Shown here one piece after another: positions 1-18,525 of a DNA stretch of 64,000 nucleotides; within the stretch, counting starts at the first letter, position 1; every line of letters begins with the position of its first letter. The notes beneath the pieces are model-generated. The model did no database searches. It was not told the origin of the DNA and saw only the letters and a program-made list of their open reading frames with translations. The stretch comes from an uncultured Erysipelotrichaceae bacterium (GTDB lineage Bacteria; Bacillota_I; Bacilli_A; RFN20; CAG-826), in NCBI GenBank assembly GCA_902802905.1, contig CADCNT010000004.1, positions 13,073-77,072 of the forward strand. Direction: 5' to 3'. The position numbers and the translations under genes were made by a program.

Positions 1-3000
1 CAAACTCACTGATGGCAGACGAAGCAGCTCTATTATATTCATAAACGATGTTTGTGCTCTTTTTTGTTCCGTTTGATAAATCTGTCTTTCTTAGTACTGC
101 TTTTAGAACAACACCAGATTCTGGAAAAGCATAATTTGGAAGCAATCCTTCGTCCGATAAGAAATTAAATACATCCTTGTCATTAATATTTTGAACCACG
201 CCTACTAATGCAAATTTCTCAGTCTTAAGCTCTTTAATCTCGGCATCGTAAGCAGAATCTTGTGGTTTTGCTTCTAAATCAGCAATTAATTGGTTTAATT
301 CTTTGATGCTATCACTTACAGAATCTCTTTGTTTTTTAAGAGCTTCAAAAGCTTCAAAGATTTTCATATACATTGGACTATTTCCTAAAGATGAACCTTT
401 TGCAAAATCAGTTAATTCTTTCTTTGTTGCATCAGAAACATCAGGGAATATTTCAAAGAAAGATTTAATCAAACTAGCCAAATGGGCTTGAACATATTTT
501 AAGAAATTAAATGGGAAGTTGTTGTCATCTTTAGCTGCTAGCTTTGCAAGGCACACCCCAATCTTAGGAATGGCGGTTTCTGGAACACCTTGTTTTACCC
601 AGCTATCAAAACAGTAAGCAACAAATTGTCTTTCTAAGACAGCAGAGGCATTAAGGAACACTTTTGGTGTCTCCACTTCTCCTTCAATCATTTCAAGAGG
701 GTCGCTATAGAAATACAAATCGTGTGGTTTTGCATTCGCGACAGTAACTGTTAAAGAGTTGCCATCTTTTCTACCTGCACGTCCTGTTCTTTGCAAATAT
801 TGAGATTGAGCAGGAGGCATACTACACAAAATAACAGATGAGAGGTCACCTATATCGATGCCCATTTCAAGTGTTGGCGTACACGATAATACATTTGTAT
901 CCCAAGGTTTCTTTTCACCAGCAGGATGCTTGAATTCAATTTCGACTTCTTCACGCTGTTCTCTTTCAAGCAAACCAGTGTGTTCTTGAGCGGATATTCT
1001 AACGATATCGCCATTCATATATAAGTTGTGATAATAGTCTTGTGGTCTATCTAACACCAAATCAATTTTGCCAAAGCAATTATCCATTGGACATGTTGCG
1101 TTAAGCCACAAACTTGAATTCGCTTTTGAAAAATTGAAATATTGGCCACAATCGCTACACTTAAACTGTTCTACTTCTGAAGAAACAGTAATTTTTGATT
1201 TATTTAAGGCGAATACAGTCAAAGTTGGATCAACCTTAATACTTTGAACGATTCCAACCTTTTCAAGCTCTTCTAGAGCCTTTTCAAAGATATAATCGCT
1301 AGAGGCATCAATGATTGAGGCATCAAAGAAGTAGCTTGAAATGTTTTCGTGGTATTTTGTCTTTTTATCGCCAACATCATCAAACGCTTTATATTTTTTC
1401 TTTGACAAGCCTTTTTGCAAACAAACAAATCGAGGAACGTTTCTACCTGCGACAGTTGATGGTAACCAAGAAAATTTACCAGTTGAAATGACAAAGTCAT
1501 TTTTCCCACCACAATTAATAAATGGATAATATACTTCATCGATGAATGCACCGTTATATCTCATTCTATTAACGACACCTAAAACAATTTTTGTGTATTC
1601 TTCTACAGTTAAATCACAAGTTGGTCCTAATTCATTTATTGCTTTTTCTCTTACATTCTCGGCAACTTGCTTAATGTCATTGTTATCCAAAGATAATATT
1701 GAGCTTGCTGTTTTTTCTAAAGTACGACCAATTCTTGAGTTTAAACCATATTCAAGCATCACTTCGTATTTAATTCTTTTTTCAATGTTTTCGATAAGAG
1801 ATTTACTAGCACTTGTTTTCGGAAGACTTCCTGTTTCTTTCATCGCTTCAAAAGAATCCATCCATGTTAAATTCGACGGAATAAACATAGTTACAAATTC
1901 TTCGTCAATTAGCTTTGAATGCCAATAATTAACAAATTCATCTTGGAATTTATCAAGTGGTAAACCATCGCCACCATCAAGAACAAATCTTTGAATAGCG
2001 CATCTTAAGGTAAATCTCCAGGTTCTAGAATTAAAGAATCCAGCTCTATGAGATGCATCTTGAACATTATCTGAAAATGTTAGTGTTTTTTTATCATCGT
2101 TAAATTTAGATGCAAACATCTGTGAAACAGTAGCACTGATACTTGTCGCACTTCTTAAACCTAATAATGAAACACCTTCGCCCTGGCAATGTGGACAAAT
2201 ATAATGTTTTTTATTACCGTGCCCAGCTTTTTCTAAATTGGTTGGAACAATAACAGGAATGGCATCTGCACCACAACTAGAACATGCGTGTCCGTTTGGT
2301 TGTCTATCCATTAAATCTAAATGCAAGCAATCTGGGCATAGATAAGCATGCATAAATCCCTCTGGAACTGGCTTATCTGGGTCATATGGGTACATTATTG
2401 TGACATTATCATCATAGCTAAAGAATCTGTTATAGAACGCACCCATATCTCTAATTCTTGCGTTTTGTTTTTCATCTAAAATCGAAACCCAACCTGTAGC
2501 ACCACAATCACGACAGTTGATAACTGGTAAATAGTGACCAGATTGCTCATCATTTAAATCAGTGGCTAAAGCATATAAAATATTTTCATCCGACACTCTT
2601 GCCACCACTCTTCTAAGTTCTCTCATCCACAATTGAACCTGAACTGTTAAAAATGGTCTTAAGTTATCTGCATTGCCACTTCTTGCATGTGAAATAAGAG
2701 CATATAGCGTATCTAAAGCAAATTTCGGATCTTCTAAATCACTTAAGAACGGATACTGTTTAATCAATTCTTCAATGATTTTGGAATTTTGAGTAAATCT
2801 ATTATCCATTGCAAAAAGCAACGCTCTGGTGAAATTGTGTTTCTTTAATCTGTTTGCTAAAAGCAATCTACTTTCAGAAGACATAATATCTTCAACATTA
2901 AAATCAGTGAGCCATCCTTGTGCGGCTTTTGTTAAAAATGAAGACAAATCATCTTTTTCATATGCCTCTAAAAGGGCTTTATTTGAATCGTTGCTTAAAT

Positions 3001-3940
3001 TCTTATAATCATCGATTGTCTCGCTAAAGAATTCGTTTGGATGAAGTCTATCTTCAGTGATGATTGAATCGTTTTCAAAAGCTTCACCAAAAACTTCATT
3101 AGCATATTTGACGATTAAATTGTTTGACTCTCCATCTCCTAAAGTAGCAGATGTGCCAATACAACAAACATATCCTTTTGGAGTATACAATCTAGCTTTT
3201 AATCTTCTTAACAAACAGGCCAAGTCTGTGCCTTGCGCACCATCAAAAGTGTGAAGTTCGTCCACTACTATAAATTTAAGAGTTTCTGGATTATTTGATT
3301 TCCACAGAGCTGCATCCTTAGGTCTAACCATGAGATAATCAAGCATCTTATAGTTTGTAAGTAAAATGTCTGGTGGATTAGATAGAAGTGTTTCTCTATC
3401 AGTAATAACGTTTTCTTTGCCCATTGCTGTAGCAGCACTGGCTTCAAGACCACCAACATACATTCCGCAGGTAATGTTGCCTTTTAGTTTATCGCTTTTA
3501 TAAATCTCTTTAGCGATACGCTTTGCTTGATCGGTTGCCAAGGCATTCATTGGATAAATAATGAGAGCTTTAATACCGGCTTCACCACGATGTTTATAGC
3601 AATATTCCAAAATAGGAAGCAAAAAACATTCTGTTTTACCGGAGCCTGTACCTGTCGCCACTATTGTGCTTCGTGGGTCATCTCCTCCAAGCCTTTCAAA
3701 AGATTTCTTTTGATGCAAATATGGGGTGTAGTTCAATTTGATTGATTCAAACGAAGGAACAACATCTGAAAGTCTAAAAGGCATCTTCACAGAAATATAA
3801 GGTTCGTGATAAACAGAATCTTTTGTTCTTAACAATTCATCAAGAGTGCCTTTAAATCCCTCGTTCGTCATAGGAAAGGTTGTTTCAATATAATCGCACA
3901 ACCCCTTTTCCAATTGTCTAGCTAAAATTGATGGAAGCAT
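1..3940 (-). CDS. drmA: DExH-box SF2 helicase with internal Cys4 zinc clusters, DISARM DrmA-like. Partial: the C-terminus lies beyond the window start. More than 1313 aa are visible.
   Basis: The ATG at 3940 overlaps the TAA stop of the upstream methyltransferase (TAATG). Motif I ATGTGSGKTE (about 3630-3660) and motif VI QRTGRAGR (about 800) are both in frame. Motif II is VVDELHTFDG. Cys clusters are CRDCGATGW, CPDCLHL, CSSCGAD and CPHCQGEG. No plus-strand ORF longer than 130 aa lies across the region. It is the third gene after an SNF2 helicase and a large N6A methyltransferase, which is class 1 DISARM synteny. Confidence 0.6.
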   Translation of the reverse strand, partial: MLPSILARQLEKGLCDYIETTFPMTNEGFKGTLDELLRTKDSVYHEPYISVKMPFRLSDVVPSFESIKLNYTPYLHQKKSFERLGGDDPRSTIVATGTGSGKTECFLLPILEYCYKHRGEAGIKALIIYPMNALATDQAKRIAKEIYKSDKLKGNITCGMYVGGLEASAATAMGKENVITDRETLLSNPPDILLTNYKMLDYLMVRPKDAALWKSNNPETLKFIVVDELHTFDGAQGTDLACLLRRLKARLYTPKGYVCCIGTSATLGDGESNNLIVKYANEVFGEAFENDSIITEDRLHPNEFFSETIDDYKNLSNDSNKALLEAYEKDDLSSFLTKAAQGWLTDFNVEDIMSSESRLLLANRLKKHNFTRALLFAMDNRFTQNSKIIEELIKQYPFLSDLEDPKFALDTLYALISHARSGNADNLRPFLTVQVQLWMRELRRVVARVSDENILYALATDLNDEQSGHYLPVINCRDCGATGWVSILDEKQNARIRDMGAFYNRFFSYDDNVTIMYPYDPDKPVPEGFMHAYLCPDCLHLDLMDRQPNGHACSSCGADAIPVIVPTNLEKAGHGNKKHYICPHCQGEGVSLLGLRSATSISATVSQMFASKFNDDKKTLTFSDNVQDASHRAGFFNSRTWRFTLRCAIQRFVLDGGDGLPLDKFQDEFVNYWHSKLIDEEFVTMFIPSNLTWMDSFEAMKETGSLPKTSASKSLIENIEKRIKYEVMLEYGLNSRIGRTLEKTASSILSLDNNDIKQVAENVREKAINELGPTCDLTVEEYTKIVLGVVNRMRYNGAFIDEVYYPFINCGGKNDFVISTGKFSWLPSTVAGRNVPRFVCLQKGLSKKKYKAFDDVGDKKTKYHENISSYFFDASIIDASSDYIFEKALEELEKVGIVQSIKVDPTLTVFALNKSKITVSSEVEQFKCSDCGQYFNFSKANSSLWLNATCPMDNCFGKIDLVLDRPQDYYHNLYMNGDIVRISAQEHTGLLEREQREEVEIEFKHPAGEKKPWDTNVLSCTPTLEMGIDIGDLSSVILCSMPPAQSQYLQRTGRAGRKDGNSLTVTVANAKPHDLYFYSDPLEMIEGEVETPKVFLNASAVLERQFVAYCFDSWVKQGVPETAIPKIGVCLAKLAAKDDNNFPFNFLKYVQAHLASLIKSFFEIFPDVSDATKKELTDFAKGSSLGNSPMYMKIFEAFEALKKQRDSVSDSIKELNQLIADLEAKPQDSAYDAEIKELKTEKFALVGVVQNINDKDVFNFLSDEGLLPNYAFPESGVVLKAVLRKTDLSNGTKKSTNIVYEYNRAASSAISEF

Positions 3941-6900
3941 TATTCATTTACCTCCCCATACTTCTTGGTGAAAAATTCCCAAGCTGTTTTATAATCCTCT
4001 ACTCTGTCGCACTTAGTGAAAGGAGCAACGTATTCAATTGTTCGTTCAACTGGTCCACCTGGCATAGTGTCGTCCACGTATGTTTTCTTATATGTACCTG
4101 ATTTCCAATCTTTAATGTTTTCCCATTCAGGACGTTTAAGTGTTAATTCACCATAATTCTTAGCGGAAAACACGATCCGTCCTTTTTGATCAAACCATGT
4201 ATCATCTTCAAACTTAGATAATACAGGGAATTGAACTCTGTATATATAAATCAATTGTTCAAGAGTTATTCCGAGACAAATGGATATTAAAACATCAATT
4301 TCTAACAACGCCTGTCTTCTTGAATAATCATCGCGGAAAGCCATTTTGTTGTTCCAATCGCCAAAATAGCTAATGCCATTATTTAATCTACTATCTTTTT
4401 TTGACCACCCATCGTTTTGAGGTGATATCTTTTTCCATTTGTTCCATAAATCAGCAAATGGTTTTGTTAAACAATTAAGTTTCAAAAGTCTATTTATAGC
4501 CATTGATAAATATACGCTATCATTAAGAAGTGGTAATTTTTCGGCGTTATCAATTGTAAAATTTGTTTTTCCAAATATTTTAATAAGACAATCATATGGA
4601 AGTGATACACATGAAGCAGAATAAGCCAACAAATCTTTCAGTTCTTTAAACGCTACGCTCATGACACCATTTGTATGAAGAGATCCAATTGGAATAATAG
4701 ATCCGAGAAGTGTTCTTTCTTGTGTTAAATTAATCATTTTTCTAGTAGCAAAACGATAATTATCGGTATGCAAATTATCCCACGTTGTTTTTGGAACAGA
4801 GGAATAGGCTCTCGGTTTATCACTTACGACATAAGTAATCCTTTGAATGTAATCATCATATATCTGATTTAAATCGATATTTTCATAATCAGTATTTGAA
4901 TTAAATACTCTATTCGATGATTTAAAATACGGATTTGCTAGGAAAAAATGTGGACCCGAAAAAACGACATCTTTATATGTGGAAGGGAAGTTTGGATTTT
5001 TTGTAATTATTTTTGATTTTTGCGAGTTTGTTTCATCAAGCAACAAAGATGATGATAATTTGCTACTTACATTTTTGAGTTTTCTAGGATAGAAAGCATA
5101 TGCTTTAGCGATATCAAATAATTCCTGGGTATGAAATGATCCAATTCTGCAAGATGTATTTGTATCTACTCCATCCAATAAAATTGAAAAAATTCTTATG
5201 CCATCAGAATCAACTTTTACCAATCTCTCAGGATTGCCATGCTTGCTCCATTGACCATTTTCATCTTTTAACCCTTCGAGTTTATACAAACAATTAGGAT
5301 CATATGTATCGTCAACTGCTGATGGATCATATAAATTACATATTAATTCGAAAGAGCTTGTTTCTCTATTTGAGAACACATTAAGGTAGAAAGCAACATG
5401 CCCATCAACATCTTTAAACAGTTTTAAGACATTTGTGAATTGAAATGATTTTCTCAATCTAGGTATTAAATATTCTCTAAGCGTTTTTCCATCGGCATCA
5501 TTAAAAACGCCTGATGGATGAACGAAAGCAAAAACTCCATTTTTATTAGCGAATCTCATTGATGTAGGGAAAAAGCAAAGATACAAATTTGTTTGCAATC
5601 CAGTAAGTTCTTCATAATTTTGAACGTTGCATAAGAAAGATTGTGTTCCAGCAATCGAGATATATTCACCAAAATACAGCTTTCTGCTTATTGGTTTTGA
5701 TAGTTCTTCTTCTCTCATTAACGCCGTTTCTGTAGCCGTCATGTTTTTAACTGAGAAATAAGGATTGCAATCAGATAATACTCCTTCTTCCTTCCAAGTA
5801 ACTTTTACCCAAGGCGGATTCCCTATCATTAAGTCAAAGCCACCTCGTTCTTCAAATAGTTCGGCAAACTCCAACTCCCAGTGCATAAAATGGTTTTCTC
5901 TTGCAATATCTCTTACAAGAGCAAGTCTTTCGTATTGTTCACATAGTTGATCAAGATTAACATTGCCTAAATCTTCAAATGTTTTTCTAATCTCTTGCGC
6001 AGCTTGATTGACATATTCTTCAGTTTCAGGATTGTAATCTAAAAGATTCATTTCATAGATATAGTCGCCACTTTTTGTTTTCTTATAAGTGCCGCTGTAT
6101 CCAGCTCCTTTAACAGCATAGATACCACCTTCAAGAATTAGGTTCATATCGAATATGAATGTTTCTCTGCTCGGTAATAAATCAGCTTTTTCAATTGGCC
6201 AAAACCATAACGCACACCAATAGTCCATTGCAAACTTCAATCTTGCATAAGGACCTGCGTTTTCTGCTTTTTCAGTCTTATATAAATTTCTAAAGATGTA
6301 ATCTTTCTGTCTGATAGTTGTGTGCGACTCTTCAATGTTATCGTCATGGCCAAAGATTGATAGTTTGTCAGCTGTTCTCTTCTTAACTTCCTTACGTAAT
6401 TCAATCTGTTTGTGCCACAGCGTATCTACGATACCGGATAGTCTGATAAGTGATTCAATATCATCTGGGTTGTATGATTCGGTAAATTTTTTATTCCACT
6501 CCTTCATCATTGCAATTTGTTTAGGAGCAAGGTCTTTAATAACTTTATCGGTATAGTTACACATTCCAGGGTCACCCAAAAGGAAGTGATAAACTTCTTT
6601 ACTTCCACGTCTAGTTTCATGAGGAGCAATTCTATCAGGGGCTTTCGTATACCATTTCAGTGCAGGATTACTAGTTTGTAACTGTTCAATACGATAAACT
6701 TGTTTCCTAGCACCAATCAAAGAATTGCCATTAACAATTTGTGTACCAAACCAAGGGATATGGCCACCTTCACAGATGGTATTTAGCCAGAGTGATACTT
6801 CTGCCAACTCCACAGCCGTACTGTTCAAGTCAACGCCATAAACATTTCTATCAGCTATGAACATTTTGACTTTTTGAACTTCATTCTTTCTATCCTCATA

Positions 6901-8715
6901 TTTAATTAATTCGCCGAGTTCTTCTTGTTTCTTATTTACATAGGCATCAGCTAATTGGTTGATGGCTTCATTCAAGAATGCTGCACTTCCCATAGCAGGT
7001 TCGCAAATGGTGAGATTTAAAATATCATCTGCGGTTTTATCAACTAATAATTCTTTAAGAGCATATTTTACTAAACATTTTGTTAGAACTTCCGGGGTAT
7101 AGTAAGAAGCAGATTTTTCTCTTTCTCTACCAGCCAATCGATAAATGAACATCCCTTTCTGGTACATTCTCGGCTTTCCTTTATGTGGTCCAGATTCATA
7201 TCTAACTCTTTCATCATCGTTGTAATTAACTAAGTCTGCTTCTGATACAAAGTATCCAACATCGAGTTCATCAAAAACATCTCCAGCTCTTTTAACTTCG
7301 TATAAATCTTTTTCAGCAATGAAGCCACGATAAGAAAGTAAGGATTCATATACTGATCCCAATTGGTTGATTCCAAGATTTGCATAAGAAATTCTATTTC
7401 CACCACTCTTATTGTCTCCACGAGTAATGCTCATGAGTCTGATAATTCTCAAAAGGACTTTGTTCCTAATTTTTGCTTGAGTGATTAATGGCGTTAAATC
7501 AGGATCGAAAATGTGAGCTTTTAATGGAGGAACCACAAAAGTATCATGCTTTGATTCCATCTTAACTGCAGCATCGTAATCCTCTTGTTTTTCAGGATAG
7601 CCATGATAGATAAGATGGAATAATTTATTAATTGTTTCGTTGAAGTAATATCCTTCTCCAACTTCTGTAACGTTTTCATTAATGTTATCTGCGACGTCTC
7701 TGAGCTGTTCTAAAGAGTATCCTTTGGCGTATGCCATTTCTTTCATAGGAGCATAGCCAAGTTCCTCTCTTGCTTCAATAAATAAAACGAAAAGCATACG
7801 ATACATATATCGTAAACACTGCATAGTCAAATCGCCTGGATCTACAGGATCTTTATCTAAATCGCGATGTTTATTAGTTTTTAAATCGTAAAGAATTTCG
7901 TTTCCTAATAATTCTATTGATTCCCTTAAAGCATATTTTAAATCTTTAGAAACACCTGCTGCGTGTCTATGAGAATTCTCGTCTAATTCGTCAAGTAAAG
8001 CTTCGCCTTCTTCTGGACATAAAGACTCTTTATGAAGAAGTACTGCCATTGCTTGGAATGTTTTTTCGTCACGGTATGAGTAAATTGTTGCCAAGTCAAA
8101 AGCTAGGTATCTCTTTTCACTCCACTTATTTCTATCGATTAAAGCAATACCATTTAATCCAATGACAACAATCCATCTCGGAGGAACATCATTACTAAAT
8201 AGAGCTTTGGTCACCGCTTCTTCTGCATTAAAATCTTCGCATGTATATGCAGGAACAAAATCATAACCAGAAGAGAAATCTCCACTAAATAAATGCCCTT
8301 GAAGAATGTCGTCGTCATCTTCTGCATTTACAGACAACATTACCCATAACAAAGGATTGCCGTTTGACTTCTTTATTTCTAAGAAGACTGGTAGGTGGGT
8401 ACCGTTTTGAAGATCGTGATTGAAAGGTGCGGGAGCAGGATAGCCTAAAGCCGACAAATAAGATTCTGCTAGTTCTTTAATAAGAGGCTTAATTTGATCT
8501 CTGCTTCTCGCTCTTAAAGCTTTATCGTGAGAGACATAATACTGTTTTGCAATTTCTCTTAATAGAGACCATGGGGTTCTTAAATTTTCACTAGCCTTAG
8601 CAGCATCGCGCCAAACAGAAATGGTTGCCGAAGCATTCTCTTCAAAAATAGAAGAAAAATAATGATTGGTGTAATATTCATTGTAGTTATTTATTCCAGG
8701 ATAAACGTTTGCCAT
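3940..8715 (-). CDS. drmMI: Large N6-adenine DNA methyltransferase (Eco57I/PglX-like), DISARM DrmMI-like, 1591 aa
   Basis: The complete ORF has SAM-binding motif I EPAMGSAAFL, motif DRNVYGVDLNSTAVELAEVSLWLN and catalytic motif IV FDLMIGNPPW. A GAGGTG RBS sits 6 nt upstream. It lies 2 nt after the SNF2 gene stop and overlaps the next gene's start. Confidence 0.8.
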   Translation of the reverse strand: MANVYPGINNYNEYYTNHYFSSIFEENASATISVWRDAAKASENLRTPWSLLREIAKQYYVSHDKALRARSRDQIKPLIKELAESYLSALGYPAPAPFNHDLQNGTHLPVFLEIKKSNGNPLLWVMLSVNAEDDDDILQGHLFSGDFSSGYDFVPAYTCEDFNAEEAVTKALFSNDVPPRWIVVIGLNGIALIDRNKWSEKRYLAFDLATIYSYRDEKTFQAMAVLLHKESLCPEEGEALLDELDENSHRHAAGVSKDLKYALRESIELLGNEILYDLKTNKHRDLDKDPVDPGDLTMQCLRYMYRMLFVLFIEAREELGYAPMKEMAYAKGYSLEQLRDVADNINENVTEVGEGYYFNETINKLFHLIYHGYPEKQEDYDAAVKMESKHDTFVVPPLKAHIFDPDLTPLITQAKIRNKVLLRIIRLMSITRGDNKSGGNRISYANLGINQLGSVYESLLSYRGFIAEKDLYEVKRAGDVFDELDVGYFVSEADLVNYNDDERVRYESGPHKGKPRMYQKGMFIYRLAGREREKSASYYTPEVLTKCLVKYALKELLVDKTADDILNLTICEPAMGSAAFLNEAINQLADAYVNKKQEELGELIKYEDRKNEVQKVKMFIADRNVYGVDLNSTAVELAEVSLWLNTICEGGHIPWFGTQIVNGNSLIGARKQVYRIEQLQTSNPALKWYTKAPDRIAPHETRRGSKEVYHFLLGDPGMCNYTDKVIKDLAPKQIAMMKEWNKKFTESYNPDDIESLIRLSGIVDTLWHKQIELRKEVKKRTADKLSIFGHDDNIEESHTTIRQKDYIFRNLYKTEKAENAGPYARLKFAMDYWCALWFWPIEKADLLPSRETFIFDMNLILEGGIYAVKGAGYSGTYKKTKSGDYIYEMNLLDYNPETEEYVNQAAQEIRKTFEDLGNVNLDQLCEQYERLALVRDIARENHFMHWELEFAELFEERGGFDLMIGNPPWVKVTWKEEGVLSDCNPYFSVKNMTATETALMREEELSKPISRKLYFGEYISIAGTQSFLCNVQNYEELTGLQTNLYLCFFPTSMRFANKNGVFAFVHPSGVFNDADGKTLREYLIPRLRKSFQFTNVLKLFKDVDGHVAFYLNVFSNRETSSFELICNLYDPSAVDDTYDPNCLYKLEGLKDENGQWSKHGNPERLVKVDSDGIRIFSILLDGVDTNTSCRIGSFHTQELFDIAKAYAFYPRKLKNVSSKLSSSLLLDETNSQKSKIITKNPNFPSTYKDVVFSGPHFFLANPYFKSSNRVFNSNTDYENIDLNQIYDDYIQRITYVVSDKPRAYSSVPKTTWDNLHTDNYRFATRKMINLTQERTLLGSIIPIGSLHTNGVMSVAFKELKDLLAYSASCVSLPYDCLIKIFGKTNFTIDNAEKLPLLNDSVYLSMAINRLLKLNCLTKPFADLWNKWKKISPQNDGWSKKDSRLNNGISYFGDWNNKMAFRDDYSRRQALLEIDVLISICLGITLEQLIYIYRVQFPVLSKFEDDTWFDQKGRIVFSAKNYGELTLKRPEWENIKDWKSGTYKKTYVDDTMPGGPVERTIEYVAPFTKCDRVEDYKTAWEFFTKKYGEVNE

Positions 8716-8717
8716 AA

Positions 8718-11576
8718 TTACACCTCTGTCAACACCGCAACCACTTTAATATATGGTTGTTTTTCAATTTCAATTGTGTCTGTATACCATTTTTCATATT
8801 CTTCGAATATTTCATCGATTTTATTCTTTTTTTGTCTGAGCAGCCTTGCTTTTGCACTCATGTTTGCATCATCAAACAAACCAACTTGTTCCACATCGAT
8901 TTCGTTGCTCAAGAAGTGCTTGTTATGAAGTTCTTCTAATCTATCCAAAAGATTGAGAAGGATTGGATTATTTTTATCTTTATATTCATCACATTTTGTA
9001 TCTAAAAGTTTTCTAACTTGAGCAATAGCATCACCCAAACTGGATGTACATGAAGATAAGATTTCTTTAGTAACAAGATTTTCATTTGGAATACTCATGT
9101 TATTTAATCTTGTGCTCTCGATGAGTTCTTTCATCGATAAAGCTTTTTCAAACTTATTATTTTTATAAACTAGACCAAACCATTCATCGATAACTGGCGT
9201 TGATTTTCTGTTGAACACAGTTCCAGAAACAATATAAATTGTTTTCTTGTCTCCACCATTTGATTTAAAACCTAAAACAGGGGCCTCTCCTCTTCCAAAC
9301 AACAAGCCTACTTTATCGTTAATCCAATTAAAGATTGGATGCAATTTCCACAAGTATTGAGCTGATGGCCAAGCATTTTCAGACAAATCATTTTGCATAC
9401 ATCTAGCCATCTCTTTCATTATGAAATTTTTATCTGGGCTCAATTTTAATTTGTCATCATCTGGCAACGATTCATCTGGAAGTGATGCTTTAAGCCTCTT
9501 TTTCATTTCATCAGAAAGCTTCAATTCAACGCCTTGAACCGTTGATAAATCCCTAACTAAATATCTATCTTCTTCTTGAAGTGTCCCGATTGCGTATTTT
9601 AAATAAGTTAAGTCTGTAAATAATGTTTCTTTTTCAACCACTTCGATTGGTTTAGAAGCTTCATCATCAGTTTGTTGCATCAATATCTCAAACGGATTGA
9701 ATTCTTCAGATGATGTGTCTAAAGTTTGGCCAAATTCTTCTGCGTCAGTTCCTTTTTCAATTGCAGCAGCAGTTTCCAATTCTTCTTCTTCGACATTAAA
9801 CTTGCCCATTAATAAAGCTGGGTCGCCAATGTTTTTATATGCTTGTTCTTCTTTTTGAATAAGAATATGCATAATACGAGTATCACCATTAATCTTTGAA
9901 TTGTTACTTTGAATAAGGAAATATCTAATATCTGGTTTAACTTTTTGTCCGTATCTATCGATTCTTCCGTTTCTTTGTTGAAAAACCATAAGTGACCACG
10001 GAATATCAAAGTGGATTAATCGATGGGACAAATAATGCAAGTTAATACCTTCAGAAGCAACATCGGAGGCCACCAAAATTCTAATTGGTGACTCTTTTCT
10101 TCCAAAATCATCAACAATCTTTTGTTGCTCAACATCTGACATTCCACCATACATTTCTTGAATAGAATTTGTAGGCATTTTTAGGTCTTTTCTAAGTTGA
10201 TTAGCAAGCCATTTCATTGTTTCTATACGTTCGGTAAAGATGACAATTCTGTCTTCTGTATTATTTTTATTCCAACCGTATTCTTTACTATTTAGCAAAG
10301 CTAGTAGTTCTTGATATCTTGAAAAATCTTCTGCTTTTATATCTTCAAGAAGAACTTTCAATTTTCTAAGTGTTTCGATATCGATAAAGTTGCCTTCGCC
10401 ATATTTAGCAACAAGCTTTTTAACTCTTTCATCAATGCTCTTAATACACGCTGCAGGAGATGAAAACATAGCCTTCTCTAAACTGGTCTTAAAAAGAGTT
10501 CCAATTCCTTGTGTTCCACCTTTATCCATTTCGAGCTTCATATCAGCAAAATAATCAAAGGCAAACTCCTCATACATTGATGCGTAACATTTTTGAATAC
10601 TAACTTCTCTATCTTTAAAAGAAGAGGCTAGTTGACTATTAACATCTTTTTTAAAACGTCTAATGCACAATCCTTTAATGTCTTCCTTTGTATAATGATG
10701 AATATCCGCGATTGCGGTTGGATCCAACATATTCATTAAGGAAGCAAAGCTTTCTGCTCTACCATCATGTGGAGTGGCAGATAGCAAAATCAAAGTATCG
10801 CTTCTTTTTGAAAGGAGCTGAGCTAGTTTAGCTCTTTGAGCTTGATGTTGACCACGCTCTGCAACATTATGAGCTTCATCGATAACAATAATGTCCCAAT
10901 ATGCTTGCTCTAAGTGTGTTCTATATTCAACGTCTCTCTTGAGAGTATCGATAGAAACGATTGTCTTGTCATAATAGAAAAACGGATTATAGTTTGATGG
11001 TAAATTGGCTCTGATTCTTTGAATCTTGTTTGAATCTAATCTGACTAAAGGTATCGAGAATCTGTTCCACATTTCCTTTTGGAACTGCATCATCATACTT
11101 TTAACAGTGACTACCAAGATTCTTTTGCCTTTGCCTCTAGCGATTAATTCGGACATCAAAATACCAGCTTCAAGCGTTTTACCTAAGCCAACCGAGTCAG
11201 CAATGAGTATTCTTTGTCTTGGGCTGCTAAGAGCCATGTTTGCTGGAACTAATTGATATTCCATTAAGTCCATCGCTGCTTTTTGCCCAATGCAAAGCTT
11301 AGAATCAGTAGGAATTTGTTGTCTTAAAGCAGATTCAATAAATAATTTAGATTTTCTAAAAGAAGGCGATGTATCCGCAATCAACTTTGTTTTAACTGGG
11401 TCCACTACGTCTATTTGTTCTAAATCTGAGAGAAAAATTGATTCTTTGTCTTTTACTAATGGTGATATTCCGATGCAATAGATGCTTTGTTGATTAAAAG
11501 AGTTTTTCTCGATTCTCTTTATCATCCATTCCTCATCTCTAATAATCACTCGTAAACCAGGAGCTAAATCTGCCAT
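8718..11576 (-). CDS. drmD: SNF2-family helicase, DISARM DrmD-like, 952 aa
   Basis: Motif I ILIADSVGLGKTLEAG, motif II VIVIDEAHNV and a C-terminal helicase domain (ILVASDVASEGINLHYL...QRNGRIDRYGQK) are present. It is the first gene of the SNF2 / methyltransferase / DExH operon. Confidence 0.8.
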   Translation of the reverse strand: MADLAPGLRVIIRDEEWMIKRIEKNSFNQQSIYCIGISPLVKDKESIFLSDLEQIDVVDPVKTKLIADTSPSFRKSKLFIESALRQQIPTDSKLCIGQKAAMDLMEYQLVPANMALSSPRQRILIADSVGLGKTLEAGILMSELIARGKGKRILVVTVKSMMMQFQKEMWNRFSIPLVRLDSNKIQRIRANLPSNYNPFFYYDKTIVSIDTLKRDVEYRTHLEQAYWDIIVIDEAHNVAERGQHQAQRAKLAQLLSKRSDTLILLSATPHDGRAESFASLMNMLDPTAIADIHHYTKEDIKGLCIRRFKKDVNSQLASSFKDREVSIQKCYASMYEEFAFDYFADMKLEMDKGGTQGIGTLFKTSLEKAMFSSPAACIKSIDERVKKLVAKYGEGNFIDIETLRKLKVLLEDIKAEDFSRYQELLALLNSKEYGWNKNNTEDRIVIFTERIETMKWLANQLRKDLKMPTNSIQEMYGGMSDVEQQKIVDDFGRKESPIRILVASDVASEGINLHYLSHRLIHFDIPWSLMVFQQRNGRIDRYGQKVKPDIRYFLIQSNNSKINGDTRIMHILIQKEEQAYKNIGDPALLMGKFNVEEEELETAAAIEKGTDAEEFGQTLDTSSEEFNPFEILMQQTDDEASKPIEVVEKETLFTDLTYLKYAIGTLQEEDRYLVRDLSTVQGVELKLSDEMKKRLKASLPDESLPDDDKLKLSPDKNFIMKEMARCMQNDLSENAWPSAQYLWKLHPIFNWINDKVGLLFGRGEAPVLGFKSNGGDKKTIYIVSGTVFNRKSTPVIDEWFGLVYKNNKFEKALSMKELIESTRLNNMSIPNENLVTKEILSSCTSSLGDAIAQVRKLLDTKCDEYKDKNNPILLNLLDRLEELHNKHFLSNEIDVEQVGLFDDANMSAKARLLRQKKNKIDEIFEEYEKWYTDTIEIEKQPYIKVVAVLTEV

Positions 11577-11667
11577 TGATACTATATTCCTTTACGTCCG
11601 TTGGTTTTAAGTTTATCACAGGAAGAAACAATTTTTAATTATTTCCGCGCGAAACTTCCCGCACATG

Positions 11668-11700
11668 AAAAAACCTCTGATAAACAGAGGTCGTCTTTTG
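11668..11700 (-). terminator. Rho-independent terminator closing the satellite's minus-strand operon
   Basis: Stem CCTCTG / CAGAGG with loop ATAAA. On the minus strand it is followed by a run of six U. It lies just downstream of the 11722 gene end. Confidence 0.6.
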
Positions 11701-11721: not shown

Positions 11722-11958
11722 TTAAAACACACCTAAGACATCAGAAACAGGTACAGTAACATTGACGTTGTCTCTAATCATAAGATGAACTTGGTCATCA
11801 TTAACATCGCCACCACTAACGTTTAATTTAACAAATGTTTCTTGGTATGGATGATCATCTAGCGAAATACTTAGGATTTCACCAACAATGATATGTTTGC
11901 CTTCTTCTCTGAGAACAGCCTTAACTTTAATACCTATTTTTAATTCGCTTGTCTTCAT
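11722..11958 (-). CDS. Small hypothetical protein (79 aa from an internal ATG with an AGGAGG RBS), last gene of the satellite operon
   Basis: The ORF is 11722..11988. ATG at 11958 is preceded by AGGAGG. There are no recognisable motifs. Confidence 0.5.
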   Translation of the reverse strand: MKTSELKIGIKVKAVLREEGKHIIVGEILSISLDDHPYQETFVKLNVSGGDVNDDQVHLMIRDNVNVTVPVSDVLGVF

Positions 11959-12056
11959 TTTTTTGATTCCTCCTAATACATACATCACTCATAAGAGTGA
12001 TAATATCAACACAATTCACAATATTTGACGTAACAAAAAATAGTGAGAAAACCCCA

Positions 12057-12623
12057 CTATCTTCTTCTACCTCCATGTTGATCCCACCACGTTCCATTAA
12101 GTAGGCTTTCCATTACGTCATCTCTTGGATTGTTATAACGGAAGTCAACCGATGAATTTTCCTTAACAATTTGGTAGATCTGGTTCCATGCACAGGTAGA
12201 TTGTTTCATAAAGTTTGAAGCCATATTAACGTATGGCGATTGAATTGGTCCTCCAGTAGTTGGATGCTTAGCAATTAAACCATATTTAGTTACTGCTTCT
12301 GCGCATTGAATATATCTAGCCTGTGATATTGCGTATTGTTCAATTAAATGAGTAGGAACTAGTTTTTCACATTTAACTCTAACCAACCATTTATATGTTT
12401 CTTCAAATAGTTCTTTAGCCGCAAATGTTGTTCCATCTCTTTGAGGAGCATAGAGATATTCTTTAATAGGTGGCATATCCACTGCTTGTAAATCTTCACC
12501 GATATCTATTTCGGTTAGTTTTCTTCCACCTGGATTACCATTTTCTAATTTTTCGATGTTGGATTTTTTCTTTCTGCCGGCTCCAACTCTTTTACCGCCA
12601 TGTAATGTAGAATTCATTGTCAT
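12057..12623 (-). CDS. terS: Phage terminase small subunit, P27 family
   Basis: The N-terminus is basic and Gly-rich (GGKRVGAGRKKK...GNPGGRKL). The core YAISQARYIQCAEAVTKYGLIAKHPTTGGPIQSPYVNMASNFMKQ matches the P27-family TerS pattern. Confidence 0.75.
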   Translation of the reverse strand: MTMNSTLHGGKRVGAGRKKKSNIEKLENGNPGGRKLTEIDIGEDLQAVDMPPIKEYLYAPQRDGTTFAAKELFEETYKWLVRVKCEKLVPTHLIEQYAISQARYIQCAEAVTKYGLIAKHPTTGGPIQSPYVNMASNFMKQSTCAWNQIYQIVKENSSVDFRYNNPRDDVMESLLNGTWWDQHGGRRR

Positions 12624-15377: not shown

Positions 15378-15892
15378 GGATTTTCATCCTCCTCGTCTTT
15401 ATTAGATTCTTCGTCCGCTCCAATAAATCGAGCGGCGTTCACCCATTCTTCTGGCTCATTCTTTTTCTCCATTATTTCAATCATGAATTTCTTTGGATCA
15501 AAGTCTTTACCAAACTTCATAATGAGGATGTACTTAATTACTTCAAAATCAGGTGGATAGTATTTTTCATCTTCAGTGACTTTAGTTTCTGTTCCACCGA
15601 TAGGATTCTTTCTCATTGTTTTGGATGTTGTTTTCTCTTTATGACCCATAGCTTTGGTCTTTAAAGCAGAGAATAAATCCTGAAGTAATAAAGCTTCTCC
15701 ATCAGATATGGCTTGTTGAATTTCTGGGTGTTTATCTTTTAGGGCGATAAAGGTTTGTTCACTTATACCCAAGTCATGACACATGTCTTTTTGTGTGTAG
15801 AAAGTAGCTGAAGCCGCTTTGATATAATCAAGCTTTGACTTTAGCACACCTGTTCTTTCCCACATTTGATATGTATCTTCTTTCCTACGCAT
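15374..15892 (-). CDS. Hypothetical protein with a putative HTH (DMCHDLGISEQTFIALKDKHPE) and an acidic C-terminus
   Basis: The ORF is 15374..15898. ATG at 15892 has a GAGGTG RBS. It is translationally coupled to the primase. Confidence 0.6.
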   Translation of the reverse strand: MRRKEDTYQMWERTGVLKSKLDYIKAASATFYTQKDMCHDLGISEQTFIALKDKHPEIQQAISDGEALLLQDLFSALKTKAMGHKEKTTSKTMRKNPIGGTETKVTEDEKYYPPDFEVIKYILIMKFGKDFDPKKFMIEIMEKKNEPEEWVNAARFIGADEESNKDEEDENP

Positions 15893-16017
15893 AAGCACCT
15901 CACAAAATGGAGAGAGGCACCTTAGTGGTTAGTGGCTATGTTTGTTAAAGTGCCACTCTCCAAATTAGATGATAAATCATCTAATCCAGTATCGCCTAGG
16001 TGATAGATAGGTGCTAT

Positions 16018-16452
16018 TTAATCAATTGGCTCTTGGCCTTCATATAAAGTACCATTATGGCGAGAGCATCTAAGGACATTAACAATGAAGTCTAATCCTC
16101 TGATTATCGTGCTTAATTCACAGTCACCACCAAGGATGATTTCAACACCACCGTTACCGCTATTTTCTATTGGCTTAACCCTAATATCAGTACAACTAGC
16201 ATCTTCAATGCGAATATATGTACGTCCTCCGTGCCCGCTATCCCCACCTTCATAGCCAGTAGTTCCAGCAGTAACTTCAAGGAAATTAGCACTAACAATG
16301 TGTTTCTTAAATATTGGAAATTCTGATCTATCAACTTTAATTGTTGAATAAGATACTTCATCAGGTTCTTCAATGTCGTGTTTCCACTCATCACCGAATT
16401 TTAATTTGAAGTATTCTTTTGGTAATTCAATAAATGGATATTCATTTTTCAT
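16018..16452 (-). CDS. Hypothetical protein
   Basis: The ORF is 16018..16461. There is a GGAG RBS for ATG at 16452. It has no recognised motifs. Confidence 0.55.
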   Translation of the reverse strand: MKNEYPFIELPKEYFKLKFGDEWKHDIEEPDEVSYSTIKVDRSEFPIFKKHIVSANFLEVTAGTTGYEGGDSGHGGRTYIRIEDASCTDIRVKPIENSGNGGVEIILGGDCELSTIIRGLDFIVNVLRCSRHNGTLYEGQEPID

Positions 16453-16467
16453 AGCTATCATTCTCCA

Positions 16468-16782
16468 TTAATGTTGTTCAGGGTACTTGAGTTTTAAATA
16501 CTCATCGTGCCAATAAAAGATTAAGTCAGCTAGTGCTGGAGCGATTTCTTTGTACCAAATAACATCTTCTGGTACATGGGTTTTTAGATAGTCATTAAGC
16601 ATATCAATATCTGCTTCAAATACTTCTTCAACCTTTCTACTAACATAGCAAGCAAATGATTCAATCCATGTGAATGCTGAATAAGCTTCTGGATAATTAT
16701 CATCATTTATTTCAGGATATTTTAGGCGAAAGAATCTGTAAGCTTGATCAAGGATATCGAATTCAATTTTTGTTTTTTTCAT
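16468..16782 (-). CDS. Hypothetical protein (104 aa from ATG 16782 with an AAGGAG RBS)
   Basis: ORF 16468..16806. The internal start at 16782 has a good RBS. Confidence 0.55.
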   Translation of the reverse strand: MKKTKIEFDILDQAYRFFRLKYPEINDDNYPEAYSAFTWIESFACYVSRKVEEVFEADIDMLNDYLKTHVPEDVIWYKEIAPALADLIFYWHDEYLKLKYPEQH

Positions 16783-16922
16783 AAATAAAGTTCTCCTTGA
16801 GCCCAAAAAGGACTCTAACTATTTAGCGAGAGCCCTAAATATTAATAATGATTTATGCACGTCTTCTAATGTGGATATGAAATAGGCACGCATCAATTAA
16901 TAAATAGAGCTTTCGCTTCTTT

Positions 16923-17177
16923 TTAAGACTCGTCATCATCACTTATTAACGATTCTTGATAAGCAATTTCCTCTTTCCAGATGACTTCAATAGGAATGTC
17001 TAGAGCAATGGCTAGTGAGTTTAGCGTCCTAAACTGAATCGCACTACCGATAACACCATTTTCTATGCGGTTATAATGTTGATGACAAACGCCCATATCT
17101 AGAGCAACGCGATATTGTGAATAACCAAGTTTTTGTCTTGCATTCACTAAGTACATTCTTATCGGGTGGTACTTCAT
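16923..17177 (-). CDS. Cro-like XRE-family HTH regulator, 84 aa
   Basis: HTH motif LGYSQYRVALDMGVCHQHYNRIENG. It is divergent from the cI-like gene. Confidence 0.75.
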   Translation of the reverse strand: MKYHPIRMYLVNARQKLGYSQYRVALDMGVCHQHYNRIENGVIGSAIQFRTLNSLAIALDIPIEVIWKEEIAYQESLISDDDES

Positions 17178-18225: not shown

Positions 18226-18340
18226 CATATTCTCATCACCTATTATCAAATTGTCTCCTCAAATATACTAAGGACGGATATGAAATAGGGACCATCTTGG
18301 TCAAACGTCTTCTTGGTGCAATCACCGAGGAGACTTTTTT

Positions 18341-18511: not shown

Positions 18512-18525
18512 GAGGTTATTCATAT

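What the first reader, a model, noticed from the sequence alone, without database searches (positions are those of the whole stretch)
1..11576. Class 1 DISARM-like operon (drmD-drmMI-drmA...) continuing beyond the window
The order SNF2 helicase, then a 1591-aa N6A methyltransferase, then a DExH helicase longer than 1300 aa, matches the class 1 DISARM order. Stop/start overlaps suggest a single operon. The expected drmB (DUF1998) and drmC (PLD) would lie off-window. The DrmA-like helicase carries two internal Cys4 clusters (CRDCG...CPDCL...CSSCG...CPHCQ and CSDCG...CPMDNC) between the RecA lobes.
Basis: partly seen in the sequence, partly recalled or inferred. Interest (0 to 1): 0.55.

Follow-up and report, generated by a model that had tools for sequence, protein, structure and literature searches.

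The report
ARMADA type II anti-phage operon
The three large genes are the first three of a four-gene ARMADA type II anti-phage defence operon, a DISARM relative first described in 2025, carried here as cargo on a small phage-satellite-like mobile element in an uncultured rumen bacterium; it is a good example of a known system, not a new one.

Summary
On the minus strand lie a 952-aa SNF2 helicase (8718-11576), a 1591-aa N6-adenine methyltransferase (3940-8715) and a DExH helicase that runs off the window (1-3940, 1313 codons).

Identical public contigs extend the locus. The third gene is 2100 aa with a fused DUF1998/MZB domain. It is followed by a 696-aa UvrD/GajB-like helicase, not by drmB or drmC.

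All four proteins align end to end with ArmA, ArmB, ArmC and ArmD of E. coli ATCC 8739 at 45, 38, 35 and 43% identity. ArmC scores 1313 bits against E. coli ArmC and 120 bits against the neighbouring E. coli DruE. The eight residues mutated in the E. coli study (six abolish and two weaken defence) are all conserved. The order A-B-C-D recurs wherever the contig reaches in 80 genomes.

This is therefore ARMADA type II (Bell et al. 2025 preprint), which is DISARM-related but is not DISARM.

The operon sits downstream of terS in a PICI-like satellite with a serine integrase, repressor and VapE primase. Close relatives of that satellite diverge immediately after terS.

Novelty: a new member of a known kind. 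Interest is modest.

The parts
8718..11576 (-). armA: a 952-aa SNF2/RapA/BrxHII-like ATPase. Walker A is K133 and DEAH is D233.
   Evidence: ORF. Pfam SNF2-rel_dom and Helicase_C. It is 45% identical over its full length to E. coli ATCC 8739 ArmA, which is also 952 aa. PDB sequence hits are to RapA. K133 and D233 align with E. coli K136 and D236.
3940..8715 (-). armB: a 1591-aa N6-adenine DNA methyltransferase of the PglX/DrmMI-like, Eco57I type. The SAM motif contains G576 and the NPPW motif starts at N966. Residues about 1100-1450 are variable and are the putative target-recognition region.
   Evidence: Pfam Eco57I and N6_Mtase. It is 38% identical over its full length to E. coli ArmB. G576 and N966 align with E. 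coli G605 and N971. The conservation profile across 20 ArmB homologues is.
1..3940 (-). armC, 5' part: codons 1-1313 of a 2100-aa YprA-family DExH helicase-nuclease. Walker A is K102 and DELH is D227. The remaining 787 codons lie beyond window base 1.
   Evidence: the window part is identical to the prefix of the 2100-aa gene on contig L001. Pfam DEAD, Helicase_C and MZB/DUF1998. It scores 1313 bits at 35% identity over its full length against E. coli ArmC, and 120 bits in local matches against E. coli DruE.
2186..2515 (-). First zinc-type module of ArmC (residues 476-585): four CxxC motifs in a beta-rich insert between the RecA lobes.
   Evidence: Motif positions. All eight cysteines are invariant in 28 homologues. 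The AF2 model shows a beta-rich segment here. It matches the 'beta-barrel ZBM' described for ARMADA and Druantia helicases in PMC12458937.
1076..1159 (-). Second zinc-type module of ArmC (residues 928-955): CSDC followed by CPMDNC, just before RecA2.
   Evidence: C928, C931, C950 and C955 are invariant. Foldseek gives only weak local matches to Fur/PerR, which combine a winged helix with a Zn(Cys)4 site (not significant). The paper describes a MarR-like domain with a C-terminal ZBM at this position.
11581..11692 (-). Putative transcription boundary upstream of armA: a terminator-like hairpin (11672-11692) followed by a promoter-like site (11581-11610).
   Evidence: Consensus scans only; sequence shown.
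11722..12623 (-). Satellite packaging module: terS (12057-12623, 188 aa) and an 87-aa ORF (11722-11985). Homology with related satellites ends just after terS.
   Evidence: Pfam Terminase_4 and phrog_83 small terminase, 6e-29. blastn homology to IMG/VR relatives L090-L093 stops at about window 12036.
13020..20268 (.). Satellite backbone. It comprises the VapE primase-helicase (13020-15377, minus), small ORFs, a cro-like HTH (16923-17156, minus), a cI-like repressor (17446-18225, plus) and a large serine integrase (18526-20268, plus). No capsid or tail genes are present.
   Evidence: Pfam and PHROGs. The same layout is found on contigs L001-L003.

Best explanation
The locus is an intact ARMADA type II anti-phage system, armA-armB-armC-armD. 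armA, armB and the first 1313 codons of armC are in the window. The rest of armC and all of armD lie just beyond base 1.

Likely mechanism. Shown for the E. coli orthologues: all four genes are required; the ATPase motifs of ArmA and ArmC, the Walker A motif of ArmD and the NPPW motif of ArmB are essential, while ArmD Walker B (D454) and ArmB G605 mutants lose only part of the activity; and protection is direct and non-abortive (PMC12458937). Everything below is inferred.

1. ArmB is a PglX/DrmMI-like m6A methyltransferase with a variable C-terminal recognition region. It reads a short asymmetric motif and marks host DNA as self.
2. ArmA is a RapA/BrxHII-like SNF2 translocase. It works with ArmB on double-stranded DNA.
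3. ArmC is a YprA/MrfA-family SF2 helicase. Its features are zinc modules inserted between the RecA lobes, an OB-CON-DUF1998 'canopy', and a C-terminal Vsr-like PD-(D/E)xK nuclease with invariant D1741, D1760-G-x3-H1765 and D1772. It would load on single-stranded or free-end intermediates of unmarked invading DNA, translocate and cut.
4. ArmD has a RelE/ParE-like N-terminal domain fused to a UvrD/GajB-like SF1 helicase. It would assist processing or sensing.

In this genome the operon is cargo placed after terS in a PICI-like satellite carrying a serine integrase, repressor and VapE primase. The host is an uncultured low-GC rumen bacterium of the Bacilli or Mollicutes type.
For: - Contig extension: identical contigs give armC at 2100 aa with DEAD, Helicase_C and MZB, followed by a 696-aa UvrD-type gene.
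- Comparison with the validated E. coli ATCC 8739 armABCD (L005): ArmA 45%, ArmB 38%, ArmC 35% (1313 bits) and ArmD 43%, all end to end. The match to the neighbouring E. coli DruE is only 120 bits and local.
- Conserved residues: all eight residues mutated in E. coli are conserved here. They are ArmA K133 and D233, ArmB G576 and N966, ArmC K102 and D227, and ArmD K265 and D448.
- Synteny: the order A-B-C-D is kept wherever the contig reaches in 80 genomes of many phyla, with ArmD after ArmC in nearly all.
- ArmD N-terminus: conserved with E. coli ArmD. There are sub-threshold ParE_like hits in 16 of 46 members and Gp49 hits in 8.
- ArmC C-terminus: invariant D/D-G/H/D/R residues. There are sub-threshold hits to REase_MTES_1575 in 9 of 35 members.
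- Literature: the definition of ARMADA II and its genetics come from PMC12458937 and 10.1101/2025.09.22.677730.
Against: - No experiment exists on this copy or in any Gram-positive host.
- Methylation by ArmB as a self-mark has not been shown for any ARMADA system in the papers read. The E. coli ArmB G605A mutant (SAM motif) lost only part of the activity.
- The fold assignments for the ArmD N-terminus (RelE-like) and the ArmC C-terminus (Vsr-like) rest here only on sub-threshold profile hits and conserved motifs. Profile searches against PDB sequences found nothing.
- The Foldseek search with the ArmC insert model gave no significant match.
- ArmB has no detectable PDB relative by sequence. 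Its best PADLOC model is labelled type IIG R-M.
Confidence: 0.9

Rival explanations
1. Class 1 DISARM (drmD-drmMI-drmA, with drmB and drmC off-window).
For: The SNF2 protein's best PADLOC and NCBIfam hits are DrmD (1e-99 and 1.6e-104). The methyltransferase hits DrmMI models at 8e-61. The gene order resembles class 1 DISARM.
Against: Neither a separate DUF1998 gene nor a PLD gene is found in the 10 kb downstream; DUF1998 is fused into the helicase. DISARM_DrmD scores 351 bits against a cut-off of 610, and DISARM_DrmAL scores 23.6 against 999. PADLOC DrmA gives 63 bits against 384 for DruE. The DrmD and DrmMI hits cover only the enzymatic cores.
Confidence: 0.03
2. A Druantia variant: a DruE helicase with new partner genes.
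For: The top PADLOC hits of the large helicase are DruE1 and DruE3 models (4.5e-115 and 1.7e-103). The best PDB sequence hit is a 2108-aa DEAD/DEAH helicase, 9tu7, which is probably a DruE.
Against: The PADLOC hits are partial. The E. coli DruE comparison gives 120 bits, against 1313 bits for E. coli ArmC. No DruH homologue was found beside any of 80 related loci, and no DruA-D or DruM/F/G-like gene lies in this locus. PADLOC v2 (2023) predates ARMADA, so DruE is simply its nearest available model.
Confidence: 0.02
3. A stand-alone type IIG restriction-modification enzyme that happens to be flanked by unrelated helicases.
For: PADLOC model REase_MTase_IIG PDLC03614 matches the 1591-aa protein end to end (1.2e-230, residues 10-1584).
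Against: The four-gene synteny is conserved across phyla. The genes are tightly packed, with a 2-nt spacer and a 1-nt overlap. In E. coli all four genes are needed. No nuclease domain was detected in the N-terminus. A D101...E113-x-K115-like string in this copy is not conserved in E. coli ArmB (alignment, read by eye).
Confidence: 0.02
4. A decaying, non-functional remnant of a defence system.
For: None is specific. The claim cannot be excluded without experiment.
Against: All four ORFs are intact and the same size as, or close in size to, their E. coli counterparts. Every tested catalytic residue is conserved. Identical copies occur on contigs from several independent samples.
Confidence: 0.04

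Closest known systems
ARMADA type II (armABCD) of E. coli NCTC 12900, ATCC 8739 and EDL933 (Bell et al. 2025, PMC12458937; EHEC OI-172 preprint 10.1101/2025.09.22.677730)
   Same: It has the same four genes in the same order. Protein lengths are the same or close (952/952, 1591/1642, 2100/2113 and 696/704 aa). Identity is 35-45% over full length. The ATPase, SAM and NPPW residues are conserved, DUF1998 is fused into the helicase, and the C-terminal nuclease motif is conserved.
   Different: The host is a low-GC uncultured Bacilli or Mollicutes-like rumen bacterium rather than a member of Pseudomonadota. The operon is not accompanied by Druantia III or Zorya II. Its carrier is a terS- and VapE-bearing satellite with a serine integrase, not a tRNA-targeting tyrosine-integrase element. 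A Macro-domain gene follows armD after 9 nt.
Class 1 DISARM (drmD, drmMI, drmA, drmB, drmC)
   Same: It also pairs an SNF2 helicase and a large N6-adenine methyltransferase with a YprA-family helicase carrying DUF1998, and probably works by direct DNA targeting with methylation-based self-marking.
   Different: In DISARM the DUF1998 module is a separate protein (DrmB) and the nuclease is a separate PLD protein (DrmC). Here both functions are fused into ArmC, the nuclease is of PD-(D/E)xK (Vsr-like) type, and a fourth UvrD-like gene is present. NCBIfam DISARM equivalog cut-offs are not reached.
Druantia type III (druH-druE)
   Same: ArmC and DruE belong to the same branch of YprA helicases, with inserted zinc modules and a fused DUF1998. 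DruE has been shown to be a 3'-to-5' DNA helicase that recognises single-stranded DNA (10.64898/2026.05.13.724758). That supports the loading step inferred for ArmC.
   Different: This locus has no DruH, and ArmC has no PLD domains. Similarity to E. coli DruE is confined to the RecA lobes and the DUF1998 region. Druantia III has no methyltransferase or SNF2 partner.
BREX type 1 (PglX with BrxHII)
   Same: The ArmB and ArmA pair resembles PglX and BrxHII. In E. coli, loss of the methyltransferase abolishes defence rather than killing the cell, as is known for BREX (own knowledge).
   Different: No PglZ, BrxC, BrxL, BrxA or BrxB is present. BREX_1_MTaseX scores 29.9 bits against a cut-off of 500.
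PICI/SaPI-type phage satellites carrying defence cargo
   Same: The layout is integrase and repressor on one side, then a divergent cro-like gene, primase-helicase and terS, with accessory genes after terS. There are no capsid or tail genes.
   Different: The integrase is a large serine recombinase. The defence payload is about 18 kb, so the element is at least 25 kb. Neither excision nor a helper phage has been shown, and the far end of the element was not located.

Membership tests
ARMADA type II | Strict gene order: BrxHII/RapA-like SNF2 helicase, PglX-like methyltransferase, YprA-like helicase, GajB-like UvrD helicase. | tested here: met
   The window ORFs plus the contig extension give genes of 952, 1591, 2100 and 696 aa in that order, with junctions from a 1-nt overlap (armB/armC) to a 2-nt spacer. 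The same order is seen in 80 related genome loci.
ARMADA type II | The YprA-like helicase belongs to the ARMADA II lineage and not to Druantia or DISARM. | tested here: met
   BLASTP gives 1313 bits at 35% identity end to end against E. coli ArmC, and 120 bits in local matches against E. coli DruE. NCBIfam DrmA scores 23.6 bits against a cut-off of 999. No tree including a type I representative was built.
ARMADA type II | ArmC has a fused OB-CON-DUF1998 module with inserted zinc modules. | tested here: met
   Pfam MZB (PF09369) at residues 1547-1630. CxxC pairs lie at 1344/1362 and at 1475, with C1494, and the DUF1998 cysteines are at 1615-1629. All are conserved with E. coli.
ARMADA type II | ArmC has a C-terminal Vsr-type PD-(D/E)xK nuclease domain. 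| tested here: inconclusive
   D1741, D1760, G1761, H1765, D1772 and R1776 are invariant in 35 homologues. Only sub-threshold Pfam REase_MTES_1575 hits were found, in 9 of 35 members. A profile search of PDB sequences found nothing. The motif fits a Vsr/DUF559-like site, but the fold was not demonstrated here.
ARMADA type II | ArmD has a RelE-like N-terminal domain fused to a GajB-like UvrD helicase. | tested here: inconclusive
   The UvrD and GajB parts are clear. The N-terminal 120 residues are homologous to those of E. coli ArmD. RelE/ParE-superfamily signals are only sub-threshold: ParE_like in 16 of 46 members, Gp49 in 8, best E-value 1e-4. A PDB profile search was negative.
ARMADA type II | Conservation of the residues shown to be needed for defence in E. 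coli. | tested here: met
   All eight are conserved: ArmA K133 and D233, ArmB G576 and N966, ArmC K102 and D227, and ArmD K265 and D448.
ARMADA type II | Confers phage resistance. | not testable with these tools
   This needs cloning and phage challenge.
DISARM class 1 | A separate DrmB (DUF1998) gene next to DrmA. | tested here: not met
   DUF1998/MZB lies inside the 2100-aa helicase. No separate DUF1998 gene is present in the flanks.
DISARM class 1 | A DrmC PLD-family nuclease gene. | tested here: not met
   The genes downstream are UvrD-like, Macro, ADP-ribosylglycohydrolase, CpXC, metallophosphoesterase and SMC-like. None has a PLD domain.
DISARM class 1 | DrmD and DrmA equivalogs by NCBIfam cut-offs. 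| tested here: not met
   DISARM_DrmD scores 351.1 bits against a cut-off of 610. DISARM_DrmAL scores 23.6 bits against a cut-off of 999.
Druantia (types I-III) | DruE together with type-specific partners: DruA-D, DruM/F/G or DruH. | tested here: not met
   Only partial DruE model hits were found. The neighbours are a methyltransferase, an SNF2 helicase and a UvrD-like helicase. tblastn with E. coli DruH found nothing in 80 related loci.
BREX type 1 | A PglX equivalog together with PglZ, BrxC and BrxL. | tested here: not met
   BREX_1_MTaseX scores 29.9 bits against a cut-off of 500. No alkaline-phosphatase (PglZ) or Lon-like gene is in the locus.
Type IIG restriction-modification | A single polypeptide with both an active nuclease and a methyltransferase. 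| tested here: inconclusive
   The PADLOC model labelled type IIG matches end to end. No nuclease family was detected in the N-terminal 500 residues. The conserved four-gene context argues against autonomy.

The most novel reading that the evidence does not exclude
This ARMADA II copy may be one exchangeable payload of a cargo slot in a family of terS-bearing, serine-integrase phage satellites of uncultured rumen Bacilli. The slot would be bounded on its far side by a conserved Macro-domain / ADP-ribosylglycohydrolase module. The Macro gene starts 9 nt after armD and could be co-transcribed with it. If so, ADP-ribose removal might be coupled to ARMADA activity or to satellite counter-defence.
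Probability: 0.12. Interest if true: 0.55.

Novelty: new member of a known kind. Interest (0 to 1): 0.3.

Why it matters
- Mechanism: ARMADA was defined only in 2025 and its mechanism is unknown. No ArmC structure is detectable by sequence in the PDB copy searched.
- Comparative value: this is an intact, compact, low-GC orthologue only 35-45% identical to the E. coli prototype. It therefore shows which residues are under constraint: the ATPase motifs, NPPW, 12 invariant cysteines between the RecA lobes, and the D...DG...H nuclease motif. It could also serve as a second experimental model in a Gram-positive background.
- Mobility: it adds a case of a large defence system carried as cargo by a phage-satellite-like element with a different integrase type. 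This fits the 'satellites deliver defence islands' model of the ARMADA paper.
- Annotation: PADLOC v2 would split this operon into 'DrmD', 'type IIG R-M', 'DruE' and 'GajB' calls.

Tried and rejected
- Class 1 DISARM, a Druantia variant, BREX and an autonomous type IIG enzyme were each tested against their defining features and rejected (see the membership table).
- E. coli EDL933 record NC_002655 is not in the collection. ATCC 8739 was used instead.
The extension was obtained through the exact ArmC hit P0121.
- An exact-pattern scan of JGI metagenomes for the ARH gene start found nothing.
- Profile searches of PDB sequences with the ArmD N-terminal alignment and the ArmC C-terminal alignment gave only chance-level hits.
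- phmmer of ArmB against PDB sequences gave no hit.
- The AlphaFold2 model of ArmC residues 270-980 had mean pLDDT 76. Foldseek against the PDB gave no match with E-value at or below 0.001, only weak local Fur/PerR-like matches. The published BrxA-like, beta-barrel and MarR-like assignments could therefore not be confirmed independently; only the order of secondary structure agrees.
- The Macro and ARH genes were considered as a fifth and sixth ARMADA component. This was rejected as the main reading. No Macro homologue follows ArmD in 80 loci, and the same Macro...ARH pair lies beside unrelated defence genes elsewhere.
- An empty integration site was sought through exact copies of the adjacent radical-SAM gene. 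All 5 contigs that extend far enough past that gene also carry the integrase, so no empty site was found.
- The host could only be narrowed to uncultured Bacilli or 'Tenericutes'-like bacteria.
Full report
**1. What is in the sequence**

The minus strand of window 1-11576 carries three tightly packed large genes (translations).
- Positions 8718-11576 encode a 952-aa protein with SNF2-related and Helicase_C domains.
- Positions 3940-8715 encode a 1591-aa protein with Eco57I/N6_Mtase domains. It has a SAM motif EPAMGSAAF and the catalytic motif NPPW.
- An open frame starts at ATG 3940-3938 and is still open at base 1, giving 1313 codons. It has a DEAD domain (residues 76-268, motif II DELH) and Helicase_C (981-1058).

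The junctions are TAA-TT-ATG (a 2-nt spacer) and TAATG (a 1-nt overlap). A terminator-like hairpin at 11672-11692 and a promoter-like site at 11581-11610 precede the first gene; these are consensus matches only.

All twelve cysteines are invariant in 28 homologues that are 43-71% identical to it.

**2. Extending the locus**

An exact-sequence look-up of the methyltransferase found the same locus on longer public contigs from rumen metagenome assemblies and a Logan assembly. The window's partial helicase is identical to the prefix of a 2100-aa gene. That gene also carries the MrfA zinc-binding domain, DUF1998 or PF09369, at residues 1547-1630.

It is followed, after a 2-nt gap, by a 696-aa UvrD-type helicase whose best PADLOC hits are GajB models. 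Next come a 359-aa Macro-domain protein, a 260-aa ADP-ribosylglycohydrolase, a CpXC protein, an SbcD-like phosphoesterase, an SMC/LmuB-like ATPase and a second Macro protein. There is no separate DUF1998 gene and no PLD nuclease.

**3. Profile searches**

In PADLOC the SNF2 protein hits DrmD best (1e-99). It also hits BrxHII, HmaA and DpdE, always over the ATPase core only.

The methyltransferase matches a model labelled REase_MTase_IIG end to end (1.2e-230). DrmMI models match only partly, at 8e-61.

The large helicase matches DruE models at 4.5e-115 and DrmA models at only 4e-18.

NCBIfam equivalog cut-offs for DISARM DrmD (351 bits against 610), DISARM DrmA (23.6 against 999), BREX PglX (29.9 against 500) and Dpd proteins are not reached. 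No single 2023-era system model fits the locus.

**4. Identification as ARMADA type II**

A literature search led to Bell et al. 2025 (PMC12458937). [quoted passage not shown] Type II has a strict gene order: a BrxHII-like SNF2 helicase (ArmA), a PglX-like methyltransferase (ArmB), a YprA-like helicase (ArmC), and a GajB-like UvrD helicase with a RelE-like N-terminus (ArmD).

The reference operon of E. coli ATCC 8739 was located and fetched (NC_010468.1; locus L005). BLASTP of the proteins from this locus against it gave these results.

| Protein | Identity | Lengths (this locus / E. coli) |
|---|---|---|
| ArmA | 45% | 952 / 952 aa |
| ArmB | 38%, end to end | 1591 / 1642 aa |
| ArmC | 35%, 1313 bits, end to end | 2100 / 2113 aa |
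| ArmD | 43%, N-terminus included | 696 / 704 aa |

The Druantia III helicase DruE, encoded next door in the same E. coli island, matches ArmC of this locus only locally, with scores of 120 and 111 bits over the RecA lobes and the DUF1998 region.

All eight residues whose mutation abolished or reduced defence in E. coli are conserved here: ArmA K133 and D233, ArmB G576 and N966, ArmC K102 and D227, and ArmD K265 and D448.

**5. Conservation elsewhere**

A scan of one genome per prokaryotic species returned the 80 best loci out of 588 matches. The hosts include Lachnospiraceae, Lacrimispora, Erysipelotrichaceae, Halobacillus, Anoxybacillus, Thermotogae, cyanobacteria, Acidobacteria and many Proteobacteria.

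tblastn with the proteins of this locus shows ArmA, ArmB, ArmC and ArmD in the same order wherever the contig reaches. ArmD follows directly after ArmC in nearly all loci. None has Macro, terS, VapE or DruH homologues beside the operon.

In the 5.8-billion-protein collection the ArmC family is very large. At least 7953 clusters scored E <= 1e-20 among the 8000 candidates scored. Full-length homologues at 54-58% identity occur in Paenibacillus, Dehalococcoides, Lachnospiraceae and Ruminobacter. Finding ARMADA II in a Bacillota-type host is therefore not unusual in itself.

**6. Domain-level checks**

- *ArmB.* The SAM-binding region (about 450-650) and the NPPW region are the most conserved. 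Residues about 850-900 and 1100-1450 are the most variable across 20 homologues. This fits a variable target-recognition domain. It also agrees with the report that armB is the most variable gene of the E. coli island.
- *ArmC C-terminus.* In 35 homologues D1741, D1760, G1761, H1765, D1772 and R1776 are invariant ('PDF...FTDGFxYH'). This is compatible with the Vsr-type PD-(D/E)xK site reported for ARMADA. Only sub-threshold Pfam hits (REase_MTES_1575, 9 of 35 members) support the fold.
- *ArmD N-terminus.* There are sub-threshold ParE_like hits in 16 of 46 members and Gp49 hits in 8. These agree with the published RelE-like assignment but do not prove it.
- *ArmC insert.* An AlphaFold2 model of ArmC residues 270-980 had mean pLDDT 76. 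It shows a helical domain, then a beta-rich segment holding the four CxxC motifs, then helical segments, then an alpha/beta unit holding the last Cys4 site. That order agrees with the published sequence of BrxA-like domain, beta-barrel zinc module and MarR-like domain with zinc module. Foldseek against the PDB gave no significant match, only weak Fur/PerR-like local hits.

**7. How it probably works**

*Shown in E. coli*. All four genes are required; ArmD is somewhat less so in the EHEC strain. The ATPase motifs of ArmA and ArmC, the Walker A motif of ArmD and the NPPW motif of ArmB are needed; mutating ArmD Walker B (D454) or the ArmB GxG motif (G605) caused only partial loss. Protection is direct: cells survive and are not metabolically shut down.

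*Shown for the related DruE*. It binds single-stranded DNA and unwinds in the 3'-to-5' direction.

*Inferred for this locus.*
- ArmB, together with the SNF2 translocase ArmA, reads a short motif and methylates host adenines as a self-mark, as in DISARM class 1 and BREX.
- ArmC loads on single-stranded or end-containing intermediates of unmarked invading DNA, translocates, and cuts with its C-terminal PD-(D/E)xK domain.
- ArmD helps to process or sense these intermediates.

Methylation-based self-marking has not been demonstrated for ARMADA in the papers read. This is the weakest step of the model.

**8. Genomic context**

Upstream of armA lie an 87-aa ORF and a small terminase (phrog_83, 6e-29). 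Further upstream are a VapE-type primase-helicase (phrog_256, 1e-277), small ORFs, a cro-like HTH, a divergent cI-like repressor and a 580-aa large serine integrase. No capsid or tail genes are present. This is the layout of a PICI-like phage satellite.

IMG/VR contigs share the VapE-terS backbone: 89-93% nucleotide identity, 96-97% for the VapE protein. Homology stops about 20 nt past the terS stop codon, and their integrases are only 40-45% identical. ARMADA therefore occupies a variable cargo position after terS. The far end of the element was not found.

The host is uncultured. One VapE cluster member comes from a 'Tenericutes bacterium' MAG. The only named relative of the window's RecB-like protein is from a 'Bacilli bacterium' MAG, at 43% identity. 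GC content is about 34%.

**9. Verdict**

The DISARM class 1 label is replaced by ARMADA type II, a DISARM- and Druantia-related system that is already described and validated in E. coli. This is a new, divergent and apparently intact member of that system, carried on a satellite-like element. It is of modest interest, mainly as comparative material for a system whose mechanism is still open.

Noticed in passing
window 20582-30674 (minus strand): A five-gene operon lies next to the satellite integrase. It encodes a 1503-aa SF1 helicase (PADLOC MkoA 7e-98), a 714-aa protein with weak DUF4145 similarity, a 360-aa protein with no hits, a 607-aa ClpB-like AAA_2 ATPase (PDC-M37B/DolB-like), and a 185-aa radical-SAM activase-like protein (NrdG-like, below cut-off). 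In all 5 contigs that extend far enough past the radical-SAM gene, the operon sits directly beside the same serine integrase. It may be a second, undescribed defence module, and it may belong to the same mobile element.
   Followed up: partly
L119:18406-26303 (beyond window base 1, downstream of armD): The genes here encode Macro (359 aa, starting 9 nt after armD), ADP-ribosylglycohydrolase (260 aa), a CpXC protein (538 aa), an SbcD-like phosphoesterase (384 aa), an SMC/LmuB-like ATPase (882 aa) and a second Macro protein. Macro homologues at 48-68% identity recur in other rumen contigs, each followed a few genes later by an ADP-ribosylglycohydrolase. The genes upstream of them differ (GmrSD and type IIG-like defence genes in one, uncharacterised proteins in another, housekeeping genes such as alaS and greA in a third). 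The pair looks like a conserved flank or module, not an ARMADA component.
   Followed up: partly
L007:6819-9958 (Lacrimispora amygdalina); a similar gap in L006: Three extra genes are nested between armB and armC of an otherwise normal ARMADA II operon. They encode a 139-aa protein, a 526-aa AAA/OLD-like ATPase and a 374-aa small UvrD-like helicase. This is a Gabija/OLD-UvrD-like pair inserted inside another defence operon.
   Followed up: no
window 12036-20268; L090-L093: The satellite family is mosaic. The VapE-terS backbone of the IMG/VR relatives is 89-93% identical to the window at DNA level (96-97% for the VapE protein). Their integrases are only 40-45% identical, and their content after terS differs. 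In L092 a different recombinase follows within 1.5 kb.
   Followed up: partly
window 3940-8715: PADLOC model PDLC03614, labelled 'type IIG restriction enzyme-methyltransferase', matches ArmB from residue 10 to 1584. Pipelines based on PADLOC v2 would probably report this operon as a type IIG R-M system plus stray DrmD, DruE and GajB hits.
   Followed up: yes
ArmC (L001:14776-21078): The PDB copy holds large helicases that match only at Druantia-like level: 9tu7, 2108 aa, 177 bits, and 9wae, 1970 aa, 83 bits. No chain matches at ArmC level, so ARMADA appears to have no solved structure there. ArmB has no PDB relative by sequence.
   Followed up: no
window 57265-63631 and 46801-49077: The chromosomal part of the window encodes a RecB-like helicase-nuclease (1153 aa). 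Its closest named relative, at 43% identity, is from a 'Bacilli bacterium' MAG. The adjacent 987-aa ORF has no NCBIfam hit. There is also an LRR adhesin-like protein of 758 aa. The host lineage is poorly represented among named genomes.
   Followed up: partly
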